Translations under genes and position numbers: made by a program
Assembly (NCBI GenBank): GCA_964570765.1
Contig: CAZMZF010000001.1
Location: forward strand, 47,626 to 111,625
Length of the DNA: 64,000 nucleotides
DNA from: an uncultured Ignavibacteria bacterium
Lineage (GTDB): Bacteria > Zixibacteria > MSB-5A5 > RBG-16-43-9
Direction: 5' to 3'
Notes under the pieces: model-generated
The model's database searches: none
Seen by the model: the letters and a program-made list of their open reading frames with translations, nothing else
Told to the model about the DNA's origin: nothing
Shown here: positions 84 through 61,204 of the stretch, in pieces
How the letters are laid out: each line of letters opens with the position of its first letter
Numbering within the stretch: the stretch's first letter is position 1

Positions 84-333
84 TTGTAGGGACAGGACAT
101 TGTCCTGTCCTTTGAATTTTTTTATTCAGGATGAAAGTTTTTGAGATAGAAAATGTAAATTCAGTTACAAATGACAGATAACGGATAAAATATTTATCTT
201 TTAGAAAAGAACCTCACCCTTAATCCCTCTCCTTGAAAAGGAGAGGGAAGTGTAGCGTCCGGTCTCAAGATGCATTGCAGTTTATCCCAGACGTCCTTTT
301 TCTATGTAGCGCGAGGCCATCTCCGCCTCAGTA

Positions 334-515
334 TAGTTTTTCAGTATTTTGGTAACATTTTTTATAGGTTAAGGATATAGGAAAGAGATTATAAATTAGA
401 AGGTAACTTGTTAAAACGGGATTCACATCCAAAAATTTGTTAGTAATTAACGAGATATTGCGTAGGGGTGGAGATTGTTGAGCTTTGCGAAACCCAGATT
501 TTAGGGTCTCCACCC
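334..515. repeat. Copy A of a ~183-bp noncoding element that is duplicated at 52457-52639
   Basis: About 88% identical to the second copy. Ends in the hairpin GTAGGGGTGGAGA...TCTCCACCC. The 61-aa ORF on the minus strand inside it is judged spurious. Confidence 0.6.
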
Positions 516-1090
516 TTAACCCTTATTATAATTTTCATTGTAACTTGAGATCACCTCCTCTATAAACGATTTGTTTTAAAACTATTTTTGCCTGGATTTT
601 CTCCTCCGGTTTTATTAGAGTCTCCATTCATAGTTATTTCTCCCTTTTTTACTCCAGCAAAAATTTGATTAATTTTAGGATTTTTAAACAAAATAAATTT
701 TACTTCAACGAAGATTTCAGGAGAAAGCTTCCTGGTTTAACTCTTTAATATAAGGTTCCAACCTAGTTAGCACCCAATAATTACAATAATAATTAAACTA
801 ATAAAATTTATTTTGTCGTCTTTTTTTAGATTTTTTGGGATTTTAATAGTGCGGGAAGATTATTCTAGCATTAAGTTTTATCACAAAAACGCATGATTGA
901 AAAGCCAACATTGCTAATTCATTCTAAACACTTGCACCATTTTAATCTTTAAGCCAATATAGTCACTCTCCTGAGCTAACTTATAAACTTTTCCTTGACT
1001 TGAAGCTTAAAAGTATTAAATTTTGCGGTGAACTAAAAGGTTAAAGAGTTTAATCCGCCAGAGGCGGAAAGGGTTCAAGGGAAAAAACTT

Positions 1091-3498: not shown

Positions 3499-3583
3499 AA
3501 AGGTTCAAGGGTTCAATGGTTCAAAAGCTCAAGGGAAAATAATGACAAATTATAGATGACAGATATAAAATAAAAGAATCATA

Positions 3584-5813: not shown

Positions 5814-6048
5814 GAAAAAACGTTTTTCGTGACCGTTGTTCGTGAGCGTTGAAAAAATGTAGAGAGGTTCAATAGTTCAAAGGTTTAATAGTTCAAGGGC
5901 AAAAAAGATATAGAATTCATTGCGGGGAAACCAGGCCGGAATGACGAAATTCGTAGGACGTTCGCCCGACACGATGGTCGGGCGTTAAGAGTTTCAGCTA
6001 CTTGCTACATGCTACCTGCTAAGAGCTATTAATAGATGAGAGAGGTAA

Positions 6049-9325: not shown

Positions 9326-9339
9326 GGTTCAAGTACTCC

Positions 9340-9390
9340 GTAGCGCGAGGCTTTTAGCCTCGCAATGCGACCCTGAAAGGGTCGCGCTAC
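9340..9390. repeat. REP element: GTAGCGCGAGGC-TTTTA-GCCTCGC-AATG-CGACCC-TGAAA-GGGTCGCGCTAC
   Basis: Double-hairpin palindrome with GTAG/CTAC termini, located 22 bp upstream of the RAYT gene. Confidence 0.75.
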
Positions 9391-9412
9391 GATTATAAGA
9401 AATGTAAATTAA

Positions 9413-9892
9413 ATGAAATATAGTTTTCAAAAGAGGATAAGATTAAAGGACTTTTCTTATAAAGGTTTGTGGAGATACTTCGTAACAATTTCGACGTACG
9501 AAGGTAAACGATATTTCGAAAATAATAAGTCTGTAGAGAGTTGTATTATTTATCTTAAAGATATATCGGTTTCATATAACTTCAACGTATTAGCGTATTG
9601 TTTTATGCCTGATCATTTGCATCTTTTGATTGAAGGAAAAGAGGAAGATTCTGATTTTAGGAAGTTTATGTCTATGTTTAAACAGAAGTCAAATTATCAT
9701 TGTAAAAACATCGAAGGAAATCCTCTTTGGCAAAAGGATTATTATGAACATGTTTTAAGAAGAAATGAGGATACTATACAGGTAATAAAGTATATATTAG
9801 ATAATCCGGTAAGAAAAGGGATGGTTAAGGATTTTAGAGATTATCCCTTTCTCGGTTCTTTTGTTTATGATTTAAAAGAGGTATTTTCGTAG
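9413..9892 (+). CDS. REP-associated tyrosine transposase (RAYT, IS200-like HUH Y1)
   Basis: HuH motif MPDHLHLLI and downstream catalytic Tyr region LWQKDYYEHVLR...NPVRKGMV. Same-family REPs flank the gene on both sides. Confidence 0.85.
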   Translation: MKYSFQKRIRLKDFSYKGLWRYFVTISTYEGKRYFENNKSVESCIIYLKDISVSYNFNVLAYCFMPDHLHLLIEGKEEDSDFRKFMSMFKQKSNYHCKNIEGNPLWQKDYYEHVLRRNEDTIQVIKYILDNPVRKGMVKDFRDYPFLGSFVYDLKEVFS

Positions 9893-9938
9893 CGCGAGGC
9901 TTCAGCCTCGCAATGCGATCCTAAAAGGATCGTCCTAC
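9889..9938. repeat. REP element of the same family. Its GTAG supplies the RAYT TAG stop codon
   Basis: GTAGCGCGAGGCTTCAGCCTCGCAATGCGATCCTAAAAGGATCGTCCTAC. Confidence 0.75.
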
Positions 9939-9978
9939 GAAAAGCAATACGAAAGACAAAAATATACAGGAGAACAAG

Positions 9979-11052: not shown

Positions 11053-11158
11053 AAAACAGTTCAAAGGTTTAAAGGTTTAAAAGTTTAAAGGTAAAAAAGA
11101 AAATTAAACTGTTTACAATAAGAGTTCTTATCAAGGAAACAAAAGGATAGAAAAAAGT

Positions 11159-12250: not shown

Positions 12251-12377
12251 AAAACGTTCAAAAGCTTAAAAGTTCAAATGTTCAAAGGTAAAATATAAGT
12301 GATGTTGGAGTGCTTAGGTTGGTTCGGGAATTGTCGTTAAGATTTTCTAGGGTGAGAATTCCTGAACCAGAAACGTA

Positions 12378-17630: not shown

Positions 17631-17663
17631 TAGGTCATAGGTAATAGGTTATAGGTCATAGGT
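17631..17663. repeat. Tandem heptamer array (NATAGGT) x5
   Basis: TAGGTCATAGGTAATAGGTTATAGGTCATAGGT. An inverted counterpart lies at 18442-18477. Confidence 0.6.
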
Positions 17664-18051: not shown

Positions 18052-18441
18052 TTAACGGTGGAACAGTACTTTCTGTCTTTCTAAAGACCTTTCTAATCCC
18101 TTTAACATCCTTCCACATTCATCATACCGTGCAATATAATCAGTGTAGAGTTCCTTAGTGAGATAATTTTTTTTAAAAGCTATAGTTAGATGATGTGCAG
18201 TTTCTCTTAATTCTCCTAAGGCTCTATTTATGCCTTCTAAATAAAGATTTATATGTTTATTATTCCAGCCCTCAGCCAGATTAGCTGGAATCGAATTAGA
18301 AGACCTTCTTAACTGCGAACCTAACTCATGCAACTCGAATTTAGGGAAAGCTAATGTCAATTTATGAATATCCAAATGCAGCTTACAGAGCTTCTGATAA
18401 ACTTCTAAATCCTCAAAACTTTTAATCCTTTCCTTTTCCAT
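18052..18441 (-). CDS. Four-helix-bundle protein (family often found in 23S rRNA intervening sequences, TIGR02436-like)
   Basis: FEDLEVYQK...IPANLAEGW motif. The track ORF starts at a GTG codon at 18456. The in-frame ATG at 18441 is the likely start. Confidence 0.65.
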   Translation of the reverse strand: MEKERIKSFEDLEVYQKLCKLHLDIHKLTLAFPKFELHELGSQLRRSSNSIPANLAEGWNNKHINLYLEGINRALGELRETAHHLTIAFKKNYLTKELYTDYIARYDECGRMLKGLERSLERQKVLFHR

Positions 18442-18477
18442 CCTACTACCTACCACCTATTACCTATCACCTACTAC
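18442..18477. repeat. Tandem heptamer array (ACCTAY) x5, inverted relative to 17631-17663
   Basis: CCTACTACCTACCACCTATTACCTATCACCTACTAC. Overlaps the ptb2 stop region. Confidence 0.6.
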
Positions 18478-19366
18478 TTGCCACCCCCAAGGCAATCGAC
18501 ATAAACTTGGTCTCGTGTGAATCAGCCCTTGAAGTTAAGACCACTGGTGCTTTTGTGCCTAAGACGACAGCGGCGCATTTTGCTTTTGCAAATTCAACTA
18601 AAGTCTTGTAAATAGCATTCCCCGTCTCAATATCCGGGCAAAGGAGGATATCTGCTTTTCCTGCTATAGGACTTTTCACCCCTTTTATCCTAGCAGATTC
18701 CTCGGAGATGGCATTATCTAAGCCAAAAGGACCATCTACAATCGCACCTTTGATCTGTCCCCTTTTTGCCATCATTGAAAGACAGGCGGCATCTACAGTT
18801 GCTGGCATCTTTTCTGGATTGACCTTTTCCGTTGCGGCAATGCAGGCAACTTTGGGTTTTTCAATCCTTAGAGATATTGCTAAATCCACAGCATTCTGTA
18901 TTATCTGAGCTTTTTCCATAAGGGTGGGGGCGATATTTATGGCCGTATCAGTTAGGAGTAAAAGTCGAGGAAAATCCGGTATCTCAAAAACCGCTATATG
19001 GGTCAGAAGTTTTCCTATGGCTAACCCTTTTTCTTTATCCAAAATCCCCTTCATAAAAATACCGGTATCTAAAAGCCCTTTCATCATCAAATCTGCTTTT
19101 CCCTGATGGATTAATTGAGTGCAAAAAAGTGAGACTTTAAGTAAATCTTTTTCCTCGATTAATTCATACTCTGAGAGGTTTATCTTATTTTTATCAGCCA
19201 ACTCTTTTATCTTCTCCTTGGAACCAACTAAAATACCCTGAACAATTTTTTCTCTGCGTGCCTGGTCTAAAGCTAAGAAAACTTTTTCATCCTCAGCCTT
19301 AGCCACAGCAATTCTCTTGGGTCCGATTGATTTGGCTAAGTTTAATATCTCCCTTAGTTCCTTCAT
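18467..19366 (-). CDS. ptb: Phosphate butyryltransferase, second paralogue
   Basis: Roughly 45% identical by eye to 15751-16647. Same domain order. Confidence 0.85.
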   Translation of the reverse strand: MKELREILNLAKSIGPKRIAVAKAEDEKVFLALDQARREKIVQGILVGSKEKIKELADKNKINLSEYELIEEKDLLKVSLFCTQLIHQGKADLMMKGLLDTGIFMKGILDKEKGLAIGKLLTHIAVFEIPDFPRLLLLTDTAINIAPTLMEKAQIIQNAVDLAISLRIEKPKVACIAATEKVNPEKMPATVDAACLSMMAKRGQIKGAIVDGPFGLDNAISEESARIKGVKSPIAGKADILLCPDIETGNAIYKTLVEFAKAKCAAVVLGTKAPVVLTSRADSHETKFMSIALGVASSR

Positions 19367-32314: not shown

Positions 32315-32407
32315 TTTTTAAGTCCTTTAAAGAACGATCCTTCGTTGCCACAGGAGTCGTAACGCTACGATTTTTTCCCCTTTGAACCTTTGAACTTTTA
32401 AACTGTT

Positions 32408-37841: not shown

Positions 37842-38279
37842 AGATTACCCTCGCTTTCTTTTTATTTTCAAAAGGAAAAGTATTATACTAAATAGATATG
37901 GAAAAAGTCAAGATTTTTTGACAGAATATTTTTTTAAAGTTTTAGGGATCCAGTTTTGGAGAAAGCACAGGTGACTTTCTAGGTAGAGACGCATTGCCAT
38001 GCGTCTCTACTTCTTTCGTAAAACTCATCTTGACATGGAAGACGGTTTCTCTCCTACAGGAAAGGGGATAGTTGAAAGCTGTAGGGGTGAAGTTACCTCG
38101 TCCCTACAAAAAATATTTAATTTTAATGTTCTTTGTCCGAGTTTGTCATCAAGACCCAAAATCGGGGATCCATAGGATTGGTATCCTCACCAAGAAGAAA
38201 AAATCGTTGGTCGGGAGACCAACGATTAGCAAAGGGCGTATGGCAATACGCCCCTACGATCTATTCGATATCTGATATT

Positions 38280-44863: not shown

Positions 44864-45011
44864 ATTGTCTTACTCCTTTCTGTCATTCTGAGGGACTCCG
44901 CTTTTGGTGAGACGACCGAAGAATCTAATTTAGCGGATAGATTCTTCCCCCGCCAAAAGCGGGGTCAGAATGACATTGATTTGCTACAAGCTACTTGCTA
45001 CATGCTTCAAG

Positions 45012-45815
45012 CTATTTTTTCCTCTTCTCTATCCAGTATCCTATATTCCCCAAGATCACCAAAATTATAATCAGAAGATGAGCTATGGATTGGGCATCCA
45101 TACCTCTTGCGCCCATACCAGGTTGACCCAGCAAAATCTCATATTCTGCAGCTCCTTTGAGTCCATTGACCAGTCCCTGGATCTGTCCGGAATTTAAAAA
45201 AGGATAAAAACTGGTTGCCATAACTGCAGTCGTTAAAACAAACAATTTTTTTTCATATCTTGCCACTGCATAATTTATCCAGGAAAAAGGTATATCCCCG
45301 TCAGTAACTGAGATTATAAGAGCTATCTTTTTATAATCTTTTATCTCTTTAGTCAGTTCCAGATCAAAAGTTGAATTACCAGTATAATCCTCAGGAAAGA
45401 CCTGATGGAAATCCTCTCCCAATCCTAAGATGGTAGCAGTAACCTGTGGTCTGAATCCCAAGAAAACATAATCTTTCCCATAGGTTTTATTATGTTTTAA
45501 AGCGTTTTCCTTTAAGACCTTTTCTCCTAAAGCGGTCCCTTCAGCTAAAAGGGAAAGACCTATAGCTTTCAGATTTTTTGAAAAAGAGTGTTGTAAAATT
45601 GCATTGGCTAAAGGCTGGACCTCTGGAAAAGATGAGGCTTCAAAATCAAAGGAGATTAAAACCACTGAGCTGTCTTCTAAATTATTTATTTTCTCAAATA
45701 CATTTTTGACCTCTGGAGTTACCTTATTCGGCAGGCTTAGTTTAAAAATCAGAGGGAAGATTACCGCTACTGCCATCAGGATGAATATCGTTTTTCGGTT
45801 AAAATTTAGTTTCAT
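45012..45815 (-). CDS. Membrane-anchored protein (N- and C-terminal TM helices), unknown function
   Basis: Hydrophobic N- and C-termini. Confidence 0.5.
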   Translation of the reverse strand: MKLNFNRKTIFILMAVAVIFPLIFKLSLPNKVTPEVKNVFEKINNLEDSSVVLISFDFEASSFPEVQPLANAILQHSFSKNLKAIGLSLLAEGTALGEKVLKENALKHNKTYGKDYVFLGFRPQVTATILGLGEDFHQVFPEDYTGNSTFDLELTKEIKDYKKIALIISVTDGDIPFSWINYAVARYEKKLFVLTTAVMATSFYPFLNSGQIQGLVNGLKGAAEYEILLGQPGMGARGMDAQSIAHLLIIILVILGNIGYWIEKRKK

Positions 45816-46101
45816 ATTCTCTTTTGGTGGAACAGATATCCTGTCACTTCTTATTATCAGACAGGAATGTCTGACCTACCACTTTTTTGGACCCACCTTG
45901 GGGGCAAGGTGGGTCTACCGATTTAAGGATAGAATTCACCGAAGGTGGATTCTGTCCCTCCAACCAGTTTCGTCGGGCGTGAAGCCCGACGCTACGAGCA
46001 TTCACTCTTTCACCATCGGATCAGTCCGCTTGAGGTGGACGACGGACACATAACTCCATATTTTTGCTACAAGCTCCTTGCTACGTGCTACCTGCTTAAA
46101 T

Positions 46102-46722
46102 TCATCCTTTACCCAAATAGGTTCTCTCGATTCCAACAATTATCCTTAAAGATGTGGCTATAGAGCCCAGACCGATTCCGATTAAAATCCCTCTTCTGGC
46201 AGCCATACTGGGGATATTCAGTACCCAGGTTGCAGATTGAGGTATAGATGAATGAATCATCTCTCCTATGGGGACTCGGCCTAAGATGACTAAAATCCCA
46301 GCAATCAGAAGGATGGTTGCCTGTATATTTCTTGCCCTGAAACCTCGATAAGCGGCTGAGGCAACAAAAAAAGCTAAAAGTGAAAACATAGTTGACTGCA
46401 TTGGGACCTGGAGATTATCGAAAATCCATAAAAAAGGCGAGCCCTTCTGAATTCCCTTCCAGAAGCCAAAAAATACCATAATAAGAAGTCCGACTATGGC
46501 AACTGAGTTATATCCCCAACCCTTTTGTTTCTTAGATATTTTTTCCAGATGGAGAAGTAAAAAACTTAAAGCGCCGACCAAGAGTGCAAAAACGTAGATT
46601 ATCTGCATCCAGTCTAAAACATTTTGATAACCTTTTAGAAAAAGAGGATGGGGCACAAAAAACTGTGCCAGCATAAATGCCCCAAAACCAAAACATACCC
46701 AGAGAGGTATCTGCCTGCTCAT
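46102..46722 (-). CDS. Integral membrane protein, unknown function
   Basis: Multiple TM helices. Confidence 0.5.
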   Translation of the reverse strand: MSRQIPLWVCFGFGAFMLAQFFVPHPLFLKGYQNVLDWMQIIYVFALLVGALSFLLLHLEKISKKQKGWGYNSVAIVGLLIMVFFGFWKGIQKGSPFLWIFDNLQVPMQSTMFSLLAFFVASAAYRGFRARNIQATILLIAGILVILGRVPIGEMIHSSIPQSATWVLNIPSMAARRGILIGIGLGSIATSLRIIVGIERTYLGKG

Positions 46723-46726
46723 CTCC

Positions 46727-47512
46727 TTATCCTTTTCCTAAAAAATTGATCAAGAAATTATAACCGAGGGTGGATAAAATCCCACCGGCGACTATAAGAA
46801 ATCCTATGATTAATTTCAAAAAGTCCTGCCCTTTAATGCTTCCCAGAACTAAAGGGTCTTTAGTTAAATAGCCACTGGCGGCAAAAAGCTCCTCGCCTAT
46901 CAAAGTGTAGTCGCAGGCAACAATAAAAAAGGAAAGCTGAATAGTAGAATCTGTGCCTGCAATCTGCAAAGCGCCAATGGAGTTTCCGGTCTCAGCTAAG
47001 ATCAGAGATTCAGCTTCAAAGGTCCCTAAGAAAAGATTAGTAGCCGGTCTTTCTCTTAACATAATTCCATCCACTGCGGCTACATATCCAAACTGGCTCT
47101 GGGTTACAAAGTAGATGTTTTCCTTTTTGTATGATTCTGGATGTCCCGTACGGGTAAAACTCTCTTTAACTACTTCCTGGGCAACAGTTGTTACCATCGG
47201 GTCGTAGTTCGGGATTAGAAGAGGAGTGTTATACTCAGCTATTTTCTCCGCTACGCTCCCCAGGATATTCATCGAAGCCATGGTTGCCACCCTTTCCATT
47301 TTTCCCAGACCAGAAGAAAAAAGAATGGGCTTACCCATTTCCGTAGCCCTGCCAACTGCCTCATCTAAAGCCTCAAGCCCGGGAATGGAACGAATCTTCA
47401 GGCTTTTTCCTTTTTTAGCATAAAGGATAAACCCGAAGATAAAAATTAAGGTAACGATTATCCCGATTAAAAGATTTATTTTCTGCGGGTCAAACCAGCT
47501 TTCTTTTTTCAA
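46727..47512 (-). CDS. Membrane protein with a large extracytoplasmic domain, unknown function
   Basis: N-terminal and C-terminal TM helices. Separated by 4 bp from the gene at 46102-46722. Confidence 0.5.
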   Translation of the reverse strand: MKKESWFDPQKINLLIGIIVTLIFIFGFILYAKKGKSLKIRSIPGLEALDEAVGRATEMGKPILFSSGLGKMERVATMASMNILGSVAEKIAEYNTPLLIPNYDPMVTTVAQEVVKESFTRTGHPESYKKENIYFVTQSQFGYVAAVDGIMLRERPATNLFLGTFEAESLILAETGNSIGALQIAGTDSTIQLSFFIVACDYTLIGEELFAASGYLTKDPLVLGSIKGQDFLKLIIGFLIVAGGILSTLGYNFLINFLGKG

Positions 47513-47973
47513 AGCAAAAGCTGAGGAGTTAAAGCTAAATATTATAACAAGAAGAAGAATTAAGTGACGGATTTTCCTCTTCAGGTTAATCCTCCTTGAT
47601 AAGTTTTTAAGTAAAGTAGAAAATAAAATTTCTTTGTCAAGGGAAATTAAAATTTGAAGTAAATCATATAGACCCGCCTTGGGGGCGAGGTGGGTTTACC
47701 GAGTTGACAATTGCTCAGTTTATCAAGTAAAAGCCTGCCCAATGAATTGGGTAACAATATTTATAAATTCATTTTGTCTACCCTACGGGGGCAAGCTCCG
47801 GATCCATTTCTCGGACGAGGAGAGGGGGAAGATCCACTTTTTACTTGACAATTTAATTTGATTATTCTATATATTTTCTGGTTAGAGAAGATAGGGAGCA
47901 AAAAACCGTTTAACATTTTTCCCCGCCTTTGGCGGGATCCCGCTTAAAGCGGGAAAACCAACAGGAGGGTGGT

Positions 47974-50400
47974 ATGCGTTACCGTGTTTTGTTTTTGGTA
48001 GTGGTGGGGCTTCTGGTCTGCAATTTAGTTTATGCAGACGTACCCAGGCTGATTAACTTTCAGGGGAGGCTCACAGATGCATCAGGCAAGTTCGTGGCAG
48101 ATGGTAGCTATTCTGTGACCTTCAGTATTTACTCAGTCCCCTCAAGCGGGAGTGCTTTATGGACTGAGGCGCAATCTGTAACGGTAACCAAGGGGTTGTT
48201 TAATGTCATCCTGGGTTCTGTTACACCGATTCCCAACACCATTTTCGATTCTTATGTTGATACCTACCTGGGAGTACAGGTGGGTGCAGATGTAGAGATG
48301 ACACCTCGCCAGAGACTTACCAGCTTAGGGTATTCCTATTATTCTCTGAATTCAGACAAACTCGACGGTTATCATGCTTCAGATTTCACCAGTCCGGTAT
48401 CTGATTTTGGACGCTCAGGTGTAGCATCTGATTTATATGAGGGAACGACTACTTTGACTGACAAGTATGTAAATGAAGAAGGCCCTGAGATTGTTAGTTG
48501 CACTACCTCTGGCTCAGCCTTTACAGGAAATGCCTCAGGCAGCAACACAGGATCTATGCGAGGAATAACCGGGTATGTATCTAACTCTTCCAGCGGAGAT
48601 TGTTATGGAGTATGGGGAGAAGTGAGTTCTTCAGGCACATCGAGTCAACATTATGCAGTTGTGGGTTTAAGTAGCGGTACTTCTTCTAATAATTTCGCTA
48701 TGGGTCTTTATGGTCAAGCTTCTGGTAATGCCAGTGTCGGTTCCTATGCTGCCTATGGTACTAGTTCAAACTCCGGCTCCGGCAAAGCTTATGGTGGATA
48801 TTTTTCTACTGGTACCTCTGGTACTGGTGAGCATTATGGGGTCTATGCCTACGGTAATGGTAATTCTGATACCACATCCTATGGTGCCTATGGTTATGGT
48901 CGGAACGCTTCCACCGGAGATGTTTATGGCGGATATTTCACCACCTCTTCTTCGGGCACAGGAACCCATTATGGAGTTTATGGAGATGCTTATGGTAGCT
49001 CCTCTTCCGATGTTTATGGTTCTTATAGTATAGCTGAAAATACCTCCAATGGTAACGTTTATGGTGGCTATTTTGTAGCTGATTCCTCAGGCACAGGCGG
49101 CCATATAGGAGTTTGGGCAGAAGGTTATGGAGACTCACCTACAGAGAATGTTTATGGTGTAAGGGGCTATGCTCATAACTCCTCGTCTGCTTATGTCTAT
49201 GGTGGAATTTTTTCTACCTCTTCTTCCGGAACGGGTTATCATTATGGTTTAAGAGCAGAAGGGGTTGGTAACGGTCCTGCGACTTATGGTTCATATAACA
49301 GCGCTACTAACTATTCTGATGATGAGGCTTATGCAGGGTATTTTTATGCCTCCTCCTCAGGCAGTGGAAAGCGTTACGGGGTGTATTCCACCTCTTACAG
49401 CAATTCCGACTCCTCCGCTTACGGTGTTTATGGATATGGCTCAAATTATGTAACAGGTGATGCTTATGGTGGATTTTTTGAGACCTCTACTTCTGGCACA
49501 GGGTATCATTATGGTTTAAGAGCAGAAGGTAATAGTGGCACCGCAGGACCTGCTCGAGGGGTCTATGCAATAGCTGAGAATACCTCCAGTGGTAGTGCCT
49601 ATGCAGGGCAGTTTTATACCTCATCTTCCGGCACAGGATACCATGCTGGTGTTAGTTCATCTTGTTATGGTTCTTATTCTTATATAGATGGTGTTAATAG
49701 TTATGTTTCAAACAGTTCCTCTGGCGACGCTTATGCTGGGTATTTTACCGCCTATTCTAACACTGGAACAGAATACGGAGTCTATGCCTATGCTCCTGCC
49801 ACAGGTTATGCGGGATATTTTTCAGGGAATCATGTAATTACCGGAACCAAGAGCGCGGCAGTGAAGGTGGATAATGGGGAATATCGGTTACTTTACTCTA
49901 TGGAATCACCGGAGAACTGGTTTGAGGATTTTGGTGAAGGGAAATTAGTTAACGGTAAGGCATTGGTGCAGATTGACCCACTCTTTGCTCAATCGGTTAA
50001 TACCTCAGTTAAATATCATGTGTTCTTAACTCCTCAGGATGAGCCTTTGACCTTAGCTGTGGCGAACAGGACTGTAAGCTCTTTTGAGGTGAGAGGTCCA
50101 GCAGGCTCTGATATTTCCTTCTCCTATCGCATCGTAGCCAAGAGGAAAGGTTATGAGGATTTGAGGATGGCTAAGATGCTTGGCTCCACTCCAGAAGAGA
50201 TGCAGGCAGAGCAGTCAAAGCGCCTGGCTGAATCAGAACAGGAAAGAGCACAGATGAAGCTTGAAAGAAAAGAGAGAACAGAAGAAGAGGAGCAACAGTA
50301 TAGACCCAAGCCACCTGAGATAGAGAGCGTGCAGAAGGTAAGAAGAGAAGAGCCAAGACCGGATACAGAGAAGATGAGGGTGGTATCCCAAGAGAGGTAA
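47974..50400 (+). CDS. Secreted Tyr/Gly/Ser-rich repeat protein with a conserved N-terminal domain and a charged C-terminal tail
   Basis: The start is placed at MRYRVLFLVVVG (signal peptide) with GGAGGG before the ATG. There are more than 10 degenerate ~35-aa repeats ...YGVYGYG..S.GD.YGGYF.TSSSGTG.HYG... The E/K/R-rich C-terminus looks coiled-coil-like. Confidence 0.7.
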   Translation: MRYRVLFLVVVGLLVCNLVYADVPRLINFQGRLTDASGKFVADGSYSVTFSIYSVPSSGSALWTEAQSVTVTKGLFNVILGSVTPIPNTIFDSYVDTYLGVQVGADVEMTPRQRLTSLGYSYYSLNSDKLDGYHASDFTSPVSDFGRSGVASDLYEGTTTLTDKYVNEEGPEIVSCTTSGSAFTGNASGSNTGSMRGITGYVSNSSSGDCYGVWGEVSSSGTSSQHYAVVGLSSGTSSNNFAMGLYGQASGNASVGSYAAYGTSSNSGSGKAYGGYFSTGTSGTGEHYGVYAYGNGNSDTTSYGAYGYGRNASTGDVYGGYFTTSSSGTGTHYGVYGDAYGSSSSDVYGSYSIAENTSNGNVYGGYFVADSSGTGGHIGVWAEGYGDSPTENVYGVRGYAHNSSSAYVYGGIFSTSSSGTGYHYGLRAEGVGNGPATYGSYNSATNYSDDEAYAGYFYASSSGSGKRYGVYSTSYSNSDSSAYGVYGYGSNYVTGDAYGGFFETSTSGTGYHYGLRAEGNSGTAGPARGVYAIAENTSSGSAYAGQFYTSSSGTGYHAGVSSSCYGSYSYIDGVNSYVSNSSSGDAYAGYFTAYSNTGTEYGVYAYAPATGYAGYFSGNHVITGTKSAAVKVDNGEYRLLYSMESPENWFEDFGEGKLVNGKALVQIDPLFAQSVNTSVKYHVFLTPQDEPLTLAVANRTVSSFEVRGPAGSDISFSYRIVAKRKGYEDLRMAKMLGSTPEEMQAEQSKRLAESEQERAQMKLERKERTEEEEQQYRPKPPEIESVQKVRREEPRPDTEKMRVVSQER

Positions 50401-50630
50401 GATTTATGTAGGGGCACGGCGCACCGTGCCCCTACGGATGTCATTGCGACCCCGCCACAGGAGGGGGAAGCAATCTGCTGACTATGTGAAGGTTGCTTCG
50501 TCGTCCCCGAAGGGGGCTCCCCGCAATGACAGGTAAAAGAAAAATATTTTGAAATTTTTCTTGCTTTTTGAAAAGTTATCTATATGTTAGTTAATGGTAG
50601 TATAAAAAACCTAAAACTAAGGAGTGGAAG

Positions 50631-51176
50631 ATGTCAAGAACTCTGAAATTTCTACCAGTAGTTTTAGTAATTGTCTTTCTTTCTTTTTCTTTGGCTTTCT
50701 CCATAGAAAAAGAAAAAGTTTTTGAAGAAAGAACAGTAAAGGAGAATTCTATAGATGAGAAAGTCCTGATAGGAAAAGAGGTGATCATACCTAAAGATAC
50801 CACTGCCACTCCCCAGAATTATCATATTCCCTGGAGCAGTTTTAATGGCGGTGGAAAAGATATGGCTTCCACCAATTATAAGACTATGGTCTCTTCAGCG
50901 CAAAGTTTTATCGGAGAGTCTCAGAGTACCAATTATCAGTTAAAAAGCGGATACTGGTATGGTGGTAAGCCTTTTCTATGTGCAGATGTTAATGAAACCG
51001 GGAATGTATCTTTAGGGGATATCGTTTACCTGATCAACTATCTTTTCAAATTTGGTCCTGAGCCAGATCCATTTTATCGTGAAGCAGATACGAATGGAGA
51101 TGGAAAGGTAAGCTTATCTGATATCGTCTGGTTGATCAACTATCTTTTTAAATTTGGACCAGCCCCTGTTTGTTAA
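50631..51176 (+). CDS. Secreted protein with a C-terminal dockerin-like duplicated Ca-binding segment
   Basis: Signal peptide. ADVNETGNVSLGDIVYLINYLFKFGP and ADTNGDGKVSLSDIVWLINYLFKFGP form a tandem pair resembling dockerin type I repeats. Confidence 0.55.
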   Translation: MSRTLKFLPVVLVIVFLSFSLAFSIEKEKVFEERTVKENSIDEKVLIGKEVIIPKDTTATPQNYHIPWSSFNGGGKDMASTNYKTMVSSAQSFIGESQSTNYQLKSGYWYGGKPFLCADVNETGNVSLGDIVYLINYLFKFGPEPDPFYREADTNGDGKVSLSDIVWLINYLFKFGPAPVC

Positions 51177-51217
51177 AGCCGTAATTAAAAGGGTCTTTCA
51201 GTAATAAGTATGTAGAG

Positions 51218-51251
51218 GTCCCTCTGGCAAAAATGCCGGAGGGACTTTTTT
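51218..51251 (+). terminator. Hairpin GTCCCTCTGGC-AAAAAT-GCCGGAGGGAC followed by T6
   Basis: Stem with 1 mismatch and a T-tract, 42 nt after the stop of the dockerin-like gene. Confidence 0.5.
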
Positions 51252-51344
51252 ATATTTAAAAAGAAGTTATAAAGAATAATTTATCCTCCGATAAGATAAA
51301 AAGGGGTTAAAATTTCTTAAATATCCGGCTTGAAGGAGGAAAAG

Positions 51345-52277
51345 ATGGATAAGATAAAAAATTTTTTGGTAAAACACTTAGAGAAAATATTAATTCTGGG
51401 CTTGACCGGTATTATTTTGATTACTAACCATTTTGTTTTTCAGAAGATGGCTTTCCTTAATTTTTATTATCTGCCGGTCTTGGTCTCTGGTTATTTCCTT
51501 GGAAAAAAGTATGCTATCTACACCAGTGTTTTCAGCATAGGGCTGGTGGTTTTCCTGGCGATTTTATACCCGAACTCTTTTTACCATCAATCCACGGATC
51601 TAAGGTTAGCTTTAGATCTGGTGATCTGGGGTGGGTTTCTGTTTTTAGCCGGAGCGGTGGTGGGGACTTTATATGAACAGAAGGAAAATAAAATTCAGGA
51701 GATCAAAAAAGCGTATGTGGGAGTGATTGAGATTTTAACTAAATACTTGGAATCCTCGGACCGATATACCAAAGGCCACTCGCTCAGAGTGGCAGATTAT
51801 GCTTCGGAAATCGCCAAGTCGTTGGAATTATCTAAAAGTGAAGTTGAAAACATCAGAGTAGCAGGTCTTCTGCACGATATAGGAAAAATTGAGATCTCGA
51901 GCGAGCTTATAACCAAAGCTGCCAGTTTGACCACGGAAGAGAAGAAAATAGTTGAAACCCATGTGGAAAAGGGCGTAGAGATATTAAGCTCAGTTGGAAC
52001 GGTCTTAAAAGAGTCTATTCCTATAGTTTTATCCCATCATAAATTCTTCATCGAGAGCAGTGAGGAGGAGAAAAAATTCAATACCCTTCCCTTAGGAGCC
52101 AGGATTTTAGCAGTGGCAGATAGCTTTGATGCGATGGTCACAGATAGGCCTTACCGGGCAGGGAAACCGTTATGGCAGGCGATGGAGGAGTTAGAAAAGG
52201 GAAGCGGGATACAATTTGATCCGCATGTGGTTGAGGCTTTTAAAAGGGTGTTAGCGGATAAAGTGGAAGTAACGTAA
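51345..52277 (+). CDS. Membrane-anchored HD-GYP-family phosphohydrolase with a degenerate GYP motif
   Basis: N-terminal 4-5 TM helices. HD domain motifs (LLHDIGK, SHHKF, VADSFDAMVTDRPYR). The expected HHExxDGxGYP segment reads HHKFFIESSEEEKK, so no GYP is present. The start is chosen at MDKIKN, preceded by AAGGAGG. Confidence 0.7.
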   Translation: MDKIKNFLVKHLEKILILGLTGIILITNHFVFQKMAFLNFYYLPVLVSGYFLGKKYAIYTSVFSIGLVVFLAILYPNSFYHQSTDLRLALDLVIWGGFLFLAGAVVGTLYEQKENKIQEIKKAYVGVIEILTKYLESSDRYTKGHSLRVADYASEIAKSLELSKSEVENIRVAGLLHDIGKIEISSELITKAASLTTEEKKIVETHVEKGVEILSSVGTVLKESIPIVLSHHKFFIESSEEEKKFNTLPLGARILAVADSFDAMVTDRPYRAGKPLWQAMEELEKGSGIQFDPHVVEAFKRVLADKVEVT

Positions 52278-52456
52278 AAAAAGTTCAAGGGTTTAAGAGT
52301 TTAAAGGTTCAAAGGGAAAAAAGAAGTGGAATTGATTCGGGTTTCGTGAACGTAAATATAACCTTACCCTAACCCTATCATTAGGAAGGAGAGGGGATGA
52401 ATTATGTACAGTAGAGGTTCAAAATTTTGAACCCTTACTTTTTTCCAAATTCAGTT

Positions 52457-52639
52457 TAGTTTTTCAGTATTTTGGTAACATTTTTTATAGTTAAGGCTAG
52501 AGGAAAGAGATTATAAATTAGAAGGTAACTTGTTAAAACGTGATTCACATTCAAGAAATTGTTAGTAATTAAAGAGATATCGCGTAGGGGTGGAGCTTGT
52601 TGAGCGAAGCGAAATCCCGCTTCTGCGGGGTCTCCACCC
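52457..52639. repeat. Copy B of the ~183-bp noncoding element
   Basis: About 88% identical to 334-515. Same terminal hairpin GTAGGGGTGGAGC...GGGTCTCCACCC. Confidence 0.6.
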
Positions 52640-52868
52640 TTTACCTTGGGCGGAGTTAAACTCCCTACGGGGAGCTAAACCTGTTAACAAAATTGTGAAG
52701 TAGTGCAACGGGCAGGAGTACAACTCCTGCCCGAGCAGATTACCTCATCAGATATTCACAGAATTGATAAAATAGCCGATAAAAATAATAATACTGAATA
52801 GTATGTTACTGCGGATAATTTATTGTAGAGTAATGTGTTAGCAAATGCTTTTCTTTTAAAAAAAACGA

Positions 52869-52896
52869 TTGACAAATTTAAAAAATTGATTATTAT
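52869..52896 (+). promoter_or_regulatory. Sigma-70-like promoter: TTGACA, 16-bp spacer, TATTAT
   Basis: Consensus -35 and near-consensus -10 about 60 nt upstream of the 52956 start codon, which is itself preceded by AGGAGG. Confidence 0.4.
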
Positions 52897-52955
52897 ATAT
52901 TCAGATTGAGGGGGAAAAGAAAACCTTTTTGCTCCTGCTTCCCAGAGGAGGTTTT

Positions 52956-54221
52956 ATGAGAGTAATGACTAAAATTTTGTTATCTTTTTTAATCCTTTTT
53001 TCCCTGGTCAGTTCTTCACAATCCAGAATAATCTATATTCCCTCCCCCTCTTTAGCCACAATTCAAGGTGGGATAAATGTTGCCTCCAACGGTGACACGG
53101 TTCTGGTCAATGTGGGAACCTATTATGAGAATATAGACTTCAAGGGAAAAAATATCGTGGTGGCAAGCAGGTATCTTATTGAAGGGGATAGCAGTTTAAT
53201 TGAGGCGACCTTCATAGACGCAACTTATTCTTCATCCAAACCTGTGGTAACTTTTAAATCCGGTGAGGACTCCCTTACCCTTTTAACCGGGTTCACCATT
53301 CGTAACAATTCTGATTCCTTAGGGATACTTTGCGACAGCAGTTCCAGCCCCCGGATCATCTATAACCAGATTAAGAATAACCTGGGAGGTCTTTCCTGTT
53401 CCAATTCTTCTAATCCTTTGATAAAAAATAATTTCTTTAAAGATAATGTCAACAATGGGGTGCGGAGTCAGAGCGGTTCTTCTCCTCAGGTGGAGAATAA
53501 TTTCATCTCTGGACACCAAGTGGGGATAAATTGTTCTGCTGGTGCTCCACTTATCAAAAGGAATGTAGTAACTCAGAGCAGTAAGATGGGAATTAACATA
53601 AGTAGTGCGTCTCCACAAGTTTACAATAACACTATAGCAAATATCACCGGGGATGGAGTAGAGATTGTTTCCTCCTCAGATGTGAAATTAATAAATAACA
53701 TCATAGCAAGTTGCAGTCTTGGCGTGGGCATAAAGGTTTCAAGCTCTAATCCTATTATAAAGTATAACGATGTCTGGGGCAATGCTGGTGGAAATTTCTC
53801 CGGAACACCTATAGGTGTTGGGAATATGTCCTGGGGTAAAAATTTAAAAGGGATAGCCTGTGACCAGTTTCTAAATATCAGCCAGGAGCCTAAATTTGTA
53901 AACCCACCTGCTGATTTTTCATTGCAGTGTTCTTCTCCCTGTATAGATGTTGGAGATCCGGGTTTCCCCGTTCCGAGTTCAGGTGGACCCAGGATCGATA
54001 TGGGGGCTTATGAGTACCTTATCTCCACTGGAGATGTTTATGTAGATGGTAAGATCAATGTTTCAGATGTAATCTTCCTGATAAATTATCTTTTCAAAAA
54101 TGGTCCCGCTCCAGATCCCTTATTAAAAGGAGATGTGACTGCAGATAGTTTAGTAAATGTCCAGGATATATTCCATCTGATAAATTATCTTTTCAGAAAC
54201 GGTATGCAGCCCTGTCATTGA
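52956..54221 (+). CDS. Secreted right-handed parallel beta-helix repeat protein with a C-terminal dockerin-like module
   Basis: Signal peptide MRVMTKILLSFLILFS. The start is chosen at MRVMTK rather than the track start at 52929. Repeated ...N.I..N..G....SS.P.I..N... units. C-terminal GDVYVDGKINVSDVIFLINYLFKNGP / GDVTADSLVNVQDIFHLINYLFRNG. Confidence 0.6.
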   Translation: MRVMTKILLSFLILFSLVSSSQSRIIYIPSPSLATIQGGINVASNGDTVLVNVGTYYENIDFKGKNIVVASRYLIEGDSSLIEATFIDATYSSSKPVVTFKSGEDSLTLLTGFTIRNNSDSLGILCDSSSSPRIIYNQIKNNLGGLSCSNSSNPLIKNNFFKDNVNNGVRSQSGSSPQVENNFISGHQVGINCSAGAPLIKRNVVTQSSKMGINISSASPQVYNNTIANITGDGVEIVSSSDVKLINNIIASCSLGVGIKVSSSNPIIKYNDVWGNAGGNFSGTPIGVGNMSWGKNLKGIACDQFLNISQEPKFVNPPADFSLQCSSPCIDVGDPGFPVPSSGGPRIDMGAYEYLISTGDVYVDGKINVSDVIFLINYLFKNGPAPDPLLKGDVTADSLVNVQDIFHLINYLFRNGMQPCH

Positions 54222-54283
54222 CCTATGTGGGAGTGGAGGCTGGAACTCCTTTTACGAAAACCGAGGGAACGGTTTCATTAAGG

Positions 54284-54315
54284 CGAATCCCGAATTTCAG
54301 GGACTCGCTTTTTTG
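54284..54315 (+). terminator. Hairpin GCGAATCCC-GAATTTCA-GGGACTCGC followed by T6
   Basis: Seen in the sequence about 60 nt after the stop of the beta-helix gene. Confidence 0.45.
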
Positions 54316-54545
54316 TTATCAAAAAGCGTTTGTTTTTTCCAGTTGAAAGATTTATAATAAAAAATGAGTATGGAATAAGGAAGATGGAAAATGAAAAATG
54401 GAATAGGTAAAAAGTAGTAAACCGTTAGTGGAGATTTATGTATAGGTATTGACAATTTAGTTTAGAGTGTGTCATGGAAAATAAAAACGTAACGTTATCT
54501 TTACAAAGTTACCAAAATATGATTTAATTATGAAGAGAGTAAGCA

Positions 54546-55025
54546 ATGCGAGTTGAAGATCAAATAAACAATGACAATGTGACCTTGCCCCGACAGAATT
54601 TATTCTCCATCTTAAAATGGGGATTTTTTTTGACCTTAATACTTTTTTTAATAAATTGCGGGCTGAAAAGACCAAAGGATGAGATTGGTCCCCTTAAGGA
54701 GGTGATAAGCAGGTTTGAGAGAGGGGTTATTAATGAAAACAGAATAGTCCTGGATTCGGTCTATAGCAAAAAAGATATAAACAGGGATTCGCTTATCAGC
54801 TCAGTTCTTCAAGAATTTTCTGCCTTGAAATCGAAAGGATTTTATTCCTTTAAGAGGAGGAAGTTTTCGATAATAGAGAATAAAATAATTGCTACAGTGG
54901 AGCTTTTCATAAGCAGAGAGGATCAGAAATCCGCGAGTGGATCCGTAGGAGAGGAGAAGATATTAGAGGTTTTCTTAGAAAAGAAAAGGGGTGAATGGAA
55001 AATAGTTGGACAGGATATAAAATAA
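54546..55025 (+). CDS. Hypothetical lipoprotein
   Basis: TM/signal region ending in LINCG (lipobox-like). Confidence 0.4.
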   Translation: MRVEDQINNDNVTLPRQNLFSILKWGFFLTLILFLINCGLKRPKDEIGPLKEVISRFERGVINENRIVLDSVYSKKDINRDSLISSVLQEFSALKSKGFYSFKRRKFSIIENKIIATVELFISREDQKSASGSVGEEKILEVFLEKKRGEWKIVGQDIK

Positions 55026-55225
55026 AGAACGTTTAATCCGCCAAAGGCGGACAAAAGTTCAAAGGCTCAAAGGAAGAAAAAATAATAATGGATGAAGAAT
55101 GACGAATGACGGAAAAAATATTGTAGGGGCAACCCCCTGCGGTTGCCCATTATGGGAGCAGGCGCTGGAGCCTGCCCCTACATAAAATATAAAATGTCAA
55201 CACTTATGAATTCAGAGGTCAATAG

Positions 55226-56284: not shown

Positions 56285-56382
56285 AATAAATGACTAATGA
56301 TTAATGATAGATAACGGATAAAAAAAATGGAAAATGAAAGAAAGAAGAAGAGAAATAAAAAGATAATGACGAATAAATAACT

Positions 56383-56443
56383 GTAGGAGCAGGCCCCTGT
56401 GCCGGCCCTGATATTCTGGGCGAACACACAGGTTAGCCCCTAC
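56383..56443. repeat. REP element GTAGGAGCAGGCCCCTG...GCCCCTAC (GTAGGGGC family)
   Basis: Palindrome with GTAG/CTAC termini 18 bp upstream of the RAYT2 start. Confidence 0.6.
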
Positions 56444-56460
56444 AAATACCAGAATAAAAA

Positions 56461-57048: not shown

Positions 57049-57328
57049 ATAGCGGATGACGAATATCGAACGACGAATAATGGATAAAAGAAGAAGGGAT
57101 ATAGAAGAAGGAATATGAAAATGAAGAAAAATGGTAGATATTGAAGATTGATTAAAAGATTGTAAGGTCAATCTCCCGTGCCTGTCCCGGAAAGGTGCTA
57201 TCATTGCGAGGAGTCTCCCCGCCTTTGGCGGGGGACGACGAAGCAAGCACCTTACTCAATCAGTGTAAACAGATTGCTTCGCACCGCAGGGGACTCGCAA
57301 TGACACTATTATAACCTGAGGAGAAAAA

Positions 57329-58894: not shown

Positions 58895-58946
58895 AGTATT
58901 TTGTATGGACAGAACACTGTTCTGTCCTACTTTTTTATCTAACTAC

Positions 58947-61182: not shown

Positions 61183-61204
61183 GCCCAATTTATTGGGCTT
61201 TTTT
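61183..61204 (+). terminator. Hairpin GCCCAAT-TTA-TTGGGC followed by T6
   Basis: Perfect short stem plus T-tract read directly from the sequence. Confidence 0.45.

What the first reader, a model, noticed from the sequence alone, without database searches (positions are those of the whole stretch)
334..515. 183-bp noncoding element present twice (334-515 and 52457-52639) with a conserved terminal hairpin
Two ~88% identical copies lie 52 kb apart. Both are in long noncoding leaders upstream of + strand genes, about 575 bp before the MBL hydrolase gene and about 315 bp before the beta-helix protein gene. Each ends in GTAGGGGTGGAG(A/C)TTGTTGAGC...GGGTCTCCACCC, which forms a stable stem. No credible ORF is conserved; the 61-aa minus-strand ORF in copy A is not intact in copy B. 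The first 1090 bp of the window are entirely noncoding and consist of this element plus REPs. Candidates are a small structured RNA gene, a MITE or IS-end remnant, or a shared cis-regulatory leader.
Basis: seen in the sequence. Interest (0 to 1): 0.6.

Follow-up and report, generated by a model that had tools for sequence, protein, structure and literature searches.

The report
Miniature mobile repeat in Zixibacteria genome
The two look-alike ~195-base stretches are copies (one complete at ~257 bases, one truncated) of a small gene-less mobile DNA element lodged among palindromic repeats between genes of an uncultured Zixibacteria bacterium; this is an ordinary kind of genomic passenger, not a regulatory leader or a structured RNA gene.

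Summary
The repeat is real. Window 328-523 and 52451-52647 are 88.8% identical over 196 columns (E 2e-68), and these are the only two copies in 64 kb.

It is neither a 5' leader nor a recognisable RNA gene. Promoter-like sites of both downstream genes lie between the element and the gene. Orthologous genes in relatives keep those promoters without the element. Rfam gives nothing, the AT-rich 130 nt is no more structured than shuffles, and no ORF is conserved.

Copy B is part of a discrete ~257-nt unit (52451-52708). That unit has 23-bp subterminal inverted repeats (18/23; 0 of 2000 shuffles reach this). It is present in the window and in one related metagenome strain, and missing, with no clear duplication at the junction, from that strain's closest relative.

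Its right-end module also occurs alone in relatives, at the very locus where the window carries truncated copy A.

The host is REP-rich. It encodes an intact REP-associated tyrosine transposase (RAYT), a decayed RAYT and a decayed IS110-family transposase, but none could be tied to the element.

Best reading: a low-copy, non-autonomous MITE-like element. The transposase is unknown. Interest is low to moderate.

The parts
52451..52708 (+). Complete element (copy B), ~257 nt: left terminus (T)CAGTTTAG..., right terminus ...TTGTGAAGTAGTGCAA
   Evidence: Exactly this block (52452-52707/8, +/-3 nt depending on how the junction is parsed) is absent from L042. It is present in L014, L042's sister strain, and in the window. 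The left end coincides within 1 nt with the start of A/B similarity. The right end coincides within 2-4 nt with the end of the solo right-end module in L030/L031.
52451..52647 (+). Module M1 of copy B: the part shared with copy A (AT-rich ~133 nt plus GTAG hairpin)
328..523 (+). Copy A: module M1 only. It is truncated, with no right-end module.
   Evidence: 88.8% identical to B. No match to the right-end 24-mer within 3 mismatches anywhere else in the window. No significant inverted repeat between its left end and the sequence downstream.
52463..52485 (+). Left subterminal inverted repeat TTCAGTATTTTGGTAACATTTTT, 12 nt in from the left terminus
52677..52699 (+). Right subterminal inverted repeat AAACCTGTTAACAAAATTGTGAA, 9 nt in from the right terminus
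   Evidence: 18/23 complementary to the left arm (19/23 in L014). 0 of 2000 dinucleotide shuffles reach 18. Searching about 1 Mb (both strands) for the left arm with up to 5 mismatches returns only left arms, reverse-complemented right arms and one stray hit.
340..362 (+). Left subterminal repeat in copy A, identical to that of B
52584..52639 (+). REP-like hairpin of B: GTAG + GGGTGGAG ... CTCCACCC, with a variable interior
462..515 (+). REP-like hairpin of A
52648..52708 (+). Module M2 (right-end module). It contains a minus-strand REP (GTAG-GGAGT-TTA-ACTCC, about 52650-52676) and then CTAAACCTGTTAACAAAATTGTGAAGTAGTGCAA.
   Evidence: 49 nt are 86% identical to L031-L036, and 33 nt are 91% identical to L030. 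In those relatives the module abuts the conserved MBL-proximal flank.

Best explanation
The repeat is a low-copy, non-autonomous (MITE-like) mobile element of a Zixibacteria lineage. The full unit is about 257 nt. In order, it contains:
- a 12-nt left extension;
- a 23-bp subterminal inverted repeat;
- an AT-rich stretch that carries a third, weak copy of the repeat motif (10 nt with one mismatch, AACTTGTTAA at 52527-52536);
- a long GTAG-type (REP-like) hairpin;
- a second, oppositely oriented REP;
- the right inverted repeat;
- a 9-nt right extension.

Inferred mechanism: a transposase supplied in trans binds the two subterminal repeats, excises the unit, and reinserts it without a clear target-site duplication. 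Insertions land in the 'silent' gap between an upstream terminator or REP and the next gene's promoter.

Copy B is intact. Copy A is an old copy that has lost its right end. In sister lineages the same locus kept only the right end.

The transposase is not identified. By architecture (subterminal repeats with short terminal extensions, no duplication, REP-rich targets) an IS1111/IS110-type DEDD enzyme is my first guess, at about 0.3. The genome's RAYT is second, at about 0.15.

Shown: the repeat, its ends, the inverted repeats, the presence/absence polymorphism, and the solo ends. Inferred: transposition itself and the enzyme.
For: 1. Defined ends are used independently. The start of A/B similarity (328 / 52451) and the left edge of the block missing in L042 agree within 1 nt. 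The right edge of that block agrees within 2-4 nt with the right edge of the solo M2 module in L030/L031, where homology to the window resumes at 803.

2. Presence/absence among close relatives. L014 and L042 are 96-97% identical to each other, and the window is the outgroup at 79-94%. Yet L014 and the window carry the unit and L042 lacks it. This points to loss by near-precise excision or to independent gain.

3. The subterminal inverted repeats match 18/23 (19/23 in L014), and 0 of 2000 shuffles reach 18.

4. There is no coding capacity, no Rfam family, and an unstructured AT-rich part.

5. M1 (window) and M2 (L030-L036) sit in the same acyl-CoA dehydrogenase / MBL spacer. That fits one ancestral full element decaying differently in each lineage. 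Site patterns place the A/B split before the window/L014 split: 15 A-specific changes against 6 window-B-derived and 0 L014-derived.

6. More distant orthologous spacers (84-87% lineages) have no element.

7. Host context. There are about 45 GTAG-hairpin REPs in 64 kb, an intact RAYT at 9413-9892, a decayed RAYT at 56461-57048, and a decayed IS110-family transposase at 60313-61042.

8. Logan contigs from three runs end at 52486. That is exactly the last 31-mer containing the base that distinguishes B from A, as expected at a repeat.
Against: - Copy number is very low: two copies in the window and one orthologue. No further copy was found in about 440 kb of related loci by BLASTN or nhmmer.
- The single metagenome scan with an 18-mer from the most conserved block found only the B orthologue. 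The genome-collection scan with a 19-mer found only chance hits.
- No target-site duplication is visible, and the one empty site (L042) is not a perfect join: the junction differs by 1-3 nt.
- The inverted repeats are imperfect and subterminal.
- No autonomous partner with matching ends was found.
- Neither decayed transposase gene nor the RAYT shares end sequences with the element.
- A single deletion in L042 plus one old duplication could in principle arise without transposition.
Confidence: 0.6

Rival explanations
1. BIME-like mosaic. The unit is simply one block in a patchwork of REPs and short spacer motifs. It is shuffled between intergenic regions by recombination, template switching or gene conversion at REP hairpins, or by the RAYT acting on the REPs, not by a transposase that recognises the 23-bp repeats.
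For: The spacers are mosaics of reused modules:
- GTAG hairpins of several classes;
- a CCTYACCCT...AGGAGAGGG hairpin motif upstream of both copies, read directly;
- the GGTTCAAAATTTTGAACC hairpin, reused at 52411 and 60027.

The acyl-CoA dehydrogenase / MBL spacer is completely different in the window, L030/31 and L037. An intact RAYT flanked by REP doublets is present. The element itself contains two oppositely oriented REPs. The low copy number also fits this reading.
Against: The same left and right termini recur in independent events. The significant 23-bp inverted repeats are not REPs and are unexplained by this model. The 135-nt AT-rich segment has no palindromic character.
Confidence: 0.2
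2. A small RNA gene, possibly riding in an IS-like module in the way ssr9 rides with ISPpu9. The transcript would end at or be stabilised by the GTAG hairpin, or start from the minus-strand TTAACA-N15-TATAAT inside the invariant block.
For: The 40-nt and 34-nt blocks are invariant between paralogues. The hairpin is stable. A perfect TATAAT lies on the minus strand inside the invariant block (read). The element is 95-98% identical between the window and L014 while the adjacent spacer parts are only 50-85% identical. There is a precedent for sRNA modules with IS ends in REPs (PMC12288879).
Against: No Rfam hit even at E<=10. Whole-element fold z-scores are -0.3 to -1.4, and the AT-rich part scores +0.3 and +0.9. 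The hairpin interior changes fold between A and B and shows no compensatory changes. There is no U-tract after the hairpin. The promoter scan reports no site inside the element on either strand. The neighbouring HD-GYP gene is equally conserved, so conservation is not exceptional. The element is dispensable in L042.
Confidence: 0.1
3. A shared cis-regulatory 5' leader of the two downstream + strand genes.
For: Both copies have the same orientation and lie upstream of + strand genes.
Against: Sigma-70-like promoters lie between element and gene: TTGACT-16-TAAATT at 995-1022 and TTGACA-16-TATTAT at 52869-52896. These promoter regions are conserved in relatives that lack the element. A terminator-like hairpin precedes B. 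The two downstream genes are unrelated. L042 keeps the gene and promoter without the element.
Confidence: 0.03

Closest known systems
[quoted passage not shown] Correia/NEMIS, RUP, Coxiella QMITEs)
   Same: Small (~257 nt), non-coding, with inverted repeats near both ends. Intergenic. Shows presence/absence between strains and has truncated copies. The definition 'non-autonomous transposons ... [quoted passage not shown] The named examples come from my own knowledge.
   Different: The inverted repeats are subterminal (12 and 9 nt from the ends) and imperfect. No target-site duplication is seen. Only 2 copies per 64 kb, with none found elsewhere. No parent IS is known.
IS1111 group of the IS110 family, and non-autonomous modules that use such enzymes (ISPpu9 ssr9 module)
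   Same: Subterminal inverted repeats with short asymmetric terminal extensions, no target duplication, and insertion in REP-rich or hairpin-rich sites (PMC11187229; PMC12288879). A decayed IS110-family transposase lies 7.6 kb from copy B.
   Different: IS1111 subterminal repeats are 11-13 bp and near-perfect, with 7-nt and 3-nt extensions. Here they are 23 bp at 78%, with 12-nt and 9-nt extensions. No intact DEDD transposase is present. The decayed one has no matching ends. No guide-like complementarity was found between the element interior and the target flanks or its own joined ends.
REP / BIME / REPIN elements mobilised by RAYTs
   Same: The host is full of GTAG-hairpin REPs and encodes a RAYT flanked by REP doublets. 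The element contains two GTAG REPs in opposite orientation and its right end finishes in GTAG(T). REPIN definition from PMC3337134.
   Different: A REPIN is two copies of the same REP forming one long hairpin of about 100 nt, usually in tens to hundreds of copies. Here the two REPs differ in sequence. 135 nt of non-palindromic AT-rich DNA and a pair of non-REP inverted repeats make up most of the unit. Copy number is minimal.
IS200/IS605-derived PATEs
   Same: No target duplication, hairpins inside the element, and a Y1 (HUH) transposase family present in the genome.
   Different: IS200/IS605 ends are not inverted repeats, and insertion is always 3' of a fixed tetra- or pentanucleotide (own knowledge). 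The left flanks here differ: ...CTCCGCC for A and ...CCAAAT for B.

Membership tests
MITE (generic) | Short (<~500 bp) and without coding capacity | tested here: met
   About 257 nt. No ORF is conserved between the copies.
MITE (generic) | Inverted repeats at the ends | tested here: met
   23-nt arms match 18/23, and 0 of 2000 shuffles reach this. They are subterminal, not terminal.
MITE (generic) | Target-site duplication flanking the insertion | tested here: not met
   Filled versus empty site (window/L014 versus L042) shows no duplication beyond a possible single T. The junction is imprecise by 1-3 nt.
MITE (generic) | Multiple dispersed copies, with insertion polymorphism | tested here: inconclusive
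   There are two paralogous copies, one orthologue, one empty site and solo right ends. No further copies in about 440 kb of relatives. The whole genome is not available.
MITE (generic) | Ends shared with an autonomous IS | tested here: not met
   The left-end 23-mer with up to 5 mismatches and the right-end 24-mer with up to 5 mismatches found no IS-associated copy in the window or the loci. Phage, plasmid and viral collections gave no true match: the only hit was a chance 18-mer match in one viral contig. Public genome and metagenome scans were limited to one exact word each.
IS1111-group element or derivative | Subterminal inverted repeats of 11-13 bp, near-perfect, with 7-nt (left) and 3-nt (right) extensions (PMC11187229) | tested here: not met
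   The repeats are subterminal, but they are 23 bp at 78% with 12-nt and 9-nt extensions.
IS1111-group element or derivative | DEDD transposase (PF01548/PF02371) acting on these ends | tested here: inconclusive
   A decayed IS110-family gene lies at 60313-61042 (PF02371, 41.6 bits). It is not adjacent and shares no end sequences.
IS1111-group element or derivative | Non-coding-region RNA (seekRNA / bridge RNA) with short segments matching both strands of the target and the donor ends | tested here: not met
   The longest exact match between the element and the joined flanks is 6 nt (969 of 1000 shuffles do as well). Between the interior and the joined ends it is 7 nt (553 of 1000).
REPIN / RAYT system | Two copies of the same REP in inverted orientation forming one long hairpin | tested here: not met
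   The two REPs in the element (52584-52639 plus strand; about 52650-52676 minus strand) have different stems. The whole-element fold shows no such hairpin.
REPIN / RAYT system | RAYT gene in the genome, flanked by the cognate REPs | tested here: inconclusive
   The RAYT at 9413-9892 scores 112.9 bits against NF047646 (cutoff 80). However, its flanking REPs are of the GTAGCGCGASSC class, not the element's GTAGGGGTGGAG.
IS200/IS605 PATE | Insertion 3' of a fixed target tetra- or pentanucleotide; end hairpins in direct, not inverted, orientation | tested here: not met
   The left flanks differ (CTCCGCC versus CCAAAT). The end similarity is inverted.
Any Rfam 15 RNA family | Score at or above the family's gathering threshold | tested here: not met
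   No hit at the gathering threshold in the whole window. Only chance-level hits at E<=10 around both copies.

The most novel reading that the evidence does not exclude
The ~257-nt unit could be a hitch-hiking module of an RNA-guided IS110/IS1111-type recombinase system, comparable to the stand-alone ssr9 modules of ISPpu9. Alternatively it could be a previously undescribed class of composite element moved by a RAYT. In either case the conserved AT-rich segment plus hairpin would encode or bind the factor that directs its own mobilisation into REP-rich spacers.
Probability: 0.08. Interest if true: 0.6.

Novelty: new member of a known kind. Interest (0 to 1): 0.25.

Why it matters
It explains a conspicuous non-coding repeat without invoking regulation. 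It also shows that Zixibacteria intergenic spacers are fast-turnover mosaics of REPs and miniature elements, which matters for MAG assembly breaks and for anyone mining these spacers for riboswitches or sRNAs.

The end architecture (subterminal repeats, no duplication, REP-rich targets) gives a concrete handle for finding the parent transposon in an uncultured phylum. Beyond that it is an ordinary selfish element.

Tried and rejected
1. Rfam at the gathering threshold on the whole window, and at E<=10 around both copies and around the IS110 remnant: nothing credible. No tRNA or tmRNA.

2. Exact-word scans. A 19-mer against GTDB genomes gave four chance hits only. An 18-mer against JGI metagenomes gave 23 hits, of which only L014 is real. 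Two words against IMG/VR gave nothing real. BLASTN 'distant' against phages and plasmids gave no match.

3. Using the protein database as a proxy DNA search, with concatenated stop-free translations of both copies in all frames: no hit.

4. nhmmer profile of the three M1 sequences over all 61 loci and the window: no new copy.

5. Looked for a right end or inverted repeat for copy A in 523-810: none above chance (344 of 1000 shuffles).

6. Looked for M1 homology in the L030/L031 spacer: only the right-end module aligns convincingly.

7. Tested seekRNA/bridge-RNA-style complementarity to the target flanks and to the joined ends: not above chance.

8. Considered DGR template/variable repeats (no adenine-specific pattern, not in a gene), a CRISPR leader (no array seen in the direct-repeat and tandem-repeat scans) and a segmental duplication (similarity stops at about 196 nt). 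All were rejected.

9. Pfam scan of 45 window ORFs and 1 locus ORF: mostly housekeeping acyl-CoA and amino-acid catabolism genes. No transposase lies next to either copy.

10. The exact MBL protein lookup failed because the gene caller used a longer start. This was solved through homologues.

Full report
OBSERVATION

Window 328-523 (copy A) and 52451-52647 (copy B) are 88.8% identical over 196 columns, BLASTN E 2e-68. No third copy exists in the window by BLASTN or by an nhmmer profile. The 5' ~135 nt are AT-rich and 93% identical, including invariant runs of 34 and 40 nt. The 3' ~60 nt are about 80% identical.

The 3' part is a stable hairpin, GTAG followed by GGGTGGAG...CTCCACCC, with z = -3.4 and -3.6. 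Only its outer 8-9 bp are conserved. They never vary, so there is no covariation. The interior differs by substitutions and a 2-nt indel and folds differently in A and B. The AT-rich part folds no better than shuffles, z = +0.3 and +0.9.

HOST AND SETTING

Homologues of neighbouring proteins are named candidate division Zixibacteria by their sources; the assignment to that phylum is an inference from those names.

Window bases 1-7 are the end of an acyl-CoA dehydrogenase gene. Copy A lies in the 1083-nt spacer between it and an MBL-fold hydrolase gene. Copy B lies in the 678-nt spacer between an HD-GYP gene and a beta-helix/dockerin gene.

The window holds about 45 GTAG-plus-perfect-hairpin REPs of several sequence classes, almost all intergenic. 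It also holds:
- an intact REP-associated tyrosine transposase at 9413-9892 (NF047646, 112.9 bits against a cutoff of 80), flanked on both sides by the same REP doublet;
- a decayed RAYT at 56461-57048;
- a frameshifted, internally deleted IS110-family transposase at 60313-61042 (PF02371, 41.6 bits).

The other window ORFs scanned are mostly housekeeping genes or have no Pfam match; none of them is a transposase.

NOT A LEADER, NOT A RECOGNISABLE RNA, NOT CODING

Sigma-70-like sites for the two downstream genes lie downstream of the elements: TTGACT-16-TAAATT at 995-1022 and TTGACA-16-TATTAT at 52869-52896. Terminator-like hairpins lie upstream of them: 54-78 and 88-112 before A, and 52416-52433 before B. 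These are consensus matches only. However, the same promoter sequences are conserved in relatives whose orthologous genes have no element. The elements therefore sit in the gap between terminator and promoter.

Rfam gives nothing at the gathering threshold, and only chance-level hits at E<=10. The 61-aa minus-strand ORF of A is not intact in B. By my reading of the two translations, every amino-acid difference I listed in the shared frame is nonsynonymous; synonymous changes were not counted.

COMPARATIVE EVIDENCE, B LOCUS

One metagenome contig, L014 (Ga0315289_10008198), is syntenic with window 45028-61826. It carries the orthologue of B, 96% identical to B and 91% identical to A.

A second contig, L042, is L014's close relative at 96-97% nt identity. 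The window is the outgroup to both at 79-94%. L042 lacks one block of about 257 nt, window 52452-52707/8. The junctions read as follows:
- L042: ...TTTTTTCCAAATT-G-CGGGTAGGAG...
- Window and L014: ...CCAAATT-CAGT(T/G)TAG...GAAGTAGTGCAA-CGGGCAGGAG...

No target duplication is visible, and the join is imprecise by 1-3 nt. Given the tree, the simplest history is ancestral presence followed by near-precise loss in L042.

More distant lineages (84-86% HD-GYP protein identity) have unrelated spacers without the element.

The missing block is larger than the A/B repeat. It equals M1 (the ~195 nt shared with A) plus M2, a ~60-nt right-end module. M2 holds a minus-strand REP and then CTAAACCTGTTAACAAAATTGTGAAGTAGTGCAA.

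ENDS

The block carries 23-nt inverted repeats at 52463-52485 and 52677-52699, lying 12 and 9 nt in from its ends. They match 18/23 in the window and 19/23 in L014. None of 2000 dinucleotide shuffles of the element reaches 18.

I searched about 1 Mb (window plus loci, both strands) for the left arm with up to 5 mismatches. This returned only the left arms, the reverse complements of all right-end modules, and one stray hit.

A weak third copy of the motif (AACTTGTTAA) lies in the invariant internal block.

COMPARATIVE EVIDENCE, A LOCUS

Loci carrying the MBL orthologue at 98% (L030), 93% (L031-36) and 87% (L037-40) protein identity keep the order acyl-CoA dehydrogenase, spacer, MBL. None of them has copy A.

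Homology to the window resumes only at window 803. In L030 and L031-36, the sequence that abuts that conserved flank is a solo M2 module. It is 33 nt at 91% in L030 and 49 nt at 86% in L031-36, and it ends ...TTGTGAAGTAGT(A)(C).

So the right terminus recurs in an independent context. M1 (window) and M2 (relatives) occupy the same spacer. This is best explained by one ancestral full copy that decayed differently in each lineage.

Site patterns agree that A is old: 15 A-specific differences, 6 derived in window-B and 0 derived in L014-B alone.

In the window, the 279 nt between M1 and the conserved flank (523-801) are unique. They carry 21-nt inverted repeats (17/21) exactly at their edges. This may be a second small insertion that displaced the right end. 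I did not test its significance.

ASSEMBLY BEHAVIOUR

Short-read (Logan) contigs of the same strain, from three runs, all stop at 52486. That is the last 31-mer still containing base 52456, which distinguishes B from A. This is the expected de Bruijn break at a two-copy repeat. The break on the other side, at 52612, is not explained by copy A.

MECHANISM

Shown:
- a discrete non-coding unit with reproducible termini;
- significant subterminal inverted repeats;
- presence/absence between near-identical strains;
- truncated and solo-end derivatives;
- location in REP-rich terminator-promoter gaps.

Inferred: it is a non-autonomous transposable element moved in trans by an enzyme that binds the 23-bp arms, without making a target duplication.

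On which enzyme, the architecture resembles the IS1111 group of the IS110 family. That group has subterminal repeats with short terminal extensions, makes no duplication, and often targets REPs or hairpins (PMC11187229). A precedent exists for small non-coding modules that borrow such an enzyme in REPs (ISPpu9/ssr9, PMC12288879). A decayed IS110-family gene lies 7.6 kb away.

The details do not match, however:
- the arms are 23 bp at 78% with 12/9-nt extensions, against 11-13 bp with 7/3-nt extensions;
- the remnant shares no ends with the element;
- the element shows no guide-like complementarity to its target flanks or its joined ends.

The RAYT is the other candidate. The element contains two opposed GTAG REPs and ends in GTAG(T). 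But it is not a REPIN, and its REP class differs from the one flanking the RAYT.

I therefore file it only as MITE-like, with the transposase undetermined.

LIMITS

Copy number is very low, and no autonomous relative was found. The public-collection searches were restricted to one exact 18- or 19-mer each, so diverged family members would have been missed. A non-transpositional origin (BIME-like reshuffling at REPs) remains possible, at about 0.2.

VERDICT

The element is a new member of a known kind. Interest is 0.25.

Noticed in passing
window 9337-9940: Intact REP-associated tyrosine transposase gene (9413-9892; NF047646, 112.9 bits). It is flanked on both sides by the same REP doublet GTAGCGCGAGGC..GCCTCGCAATGCGACCC..GGGTCGCGCTAC, a REPtron-like arrangement in a Zixibacteria genome.
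   Followed up: partly
window 56461-57048: Decayed RAYT-like ORF: only the C-terminal half matches NF047646, at 47 bits. A 14-bp-stem GTAG REP palindrome (56740-56768) sits inside it. The orthologue in L042 carries a faint Y1_Tnp hit.
   Followed up: partly
window 59890-61080: Frameshifted, internally deleted IS110-family transposase, in ORF pieces 60313-60513, 60429-60680 and 60701-61042 (PF02371, 41.6 bits). About 420 nt of non-coding DNA lie upstream, where IS110-type bridge RNAs are normally encoded. It is conserved in L014. A 36-nt repeat directly after its stop (61043-61078) recurs at 38020-38055, next to the same REP class.
   Followed up: partly
window 523-801: A unique 279-nt AT-rich segment lies between copy A and the MBL-proximal flank that is conserved in relatives. 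It has 21-nt inverted repeats (17/21) exactly at its two edges and may be a second miniature insertion. Significance was not tested.
   Followed up: no
window 3502-3535, 11059-11092, 12252-12286, 32379-32403 (minus strand), 52279-52315; also 5865-5896: Period-8 tandem arrays of (A/G)AAGGTTC-like units, 3 to 4.6 copies. They start 2-7 nt after the stop codons of several genes. A similar array lies just before the MBL start codon in L037. Period-7 arrays of other sequences occupy other spacers (17631-17663, 18442-18485, 44982-45014, 54370-54403). Function unknown.
   Followed up: no
window, whole; e.g. 86, 9340, 22801, 29179, 37983, 50408, 56740: About 45 GTAG-plus-perfect-hairpin REPs in 64 kb, falling into several sequence classes: GTAG(C/T)GCGASSC, GTAGGGACAGRAC, GTAGAGACGCAT, GTAGGGGC.., GTAGACCCACCTTG. 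The orthologous spacers in relatives are largely unalignable, which indicates rapid turnover.
   Followed up: partly
window 208-252 and 52364-52399; L037 about 9690-9725: Another reused spacer module, CCTYACCCT(T)AA..CCTCTCC-loop-GGAGAGGG. It lies 80-120 nt upstream of both copies and, inverted, in the L037 spacer. It is retained in L042, so it is not part of the mobile unit.
   Followed up: no
L001/L002 start = window 52612: Logan contigs from two runs start at 52612, inside the B hairpin. Copy A shares no 31-mer there. The break therefore hints at a strain variant or a further B-like copy in those samples.
   Followed up: no
L043-L050 (e.g. L043 5401-6510, minus strand): In the lineage with 86% HD-GYP protein identity, the same HD-GYP / beta-helix spacer holds an extra 369-aa gene on the minus strand, with weak Filamin/Ig/dockerin hits. 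This spacer is a hot spot for insertions.
   Followed up: partly
window 18052-18456: A gene for a 23S rRNA-intervening-sequence protein family member (PF05635) sits between two phosphate acetyl/butyryl-transferase paralogues and is flanked by period-7 arrays.
   Followed up: no
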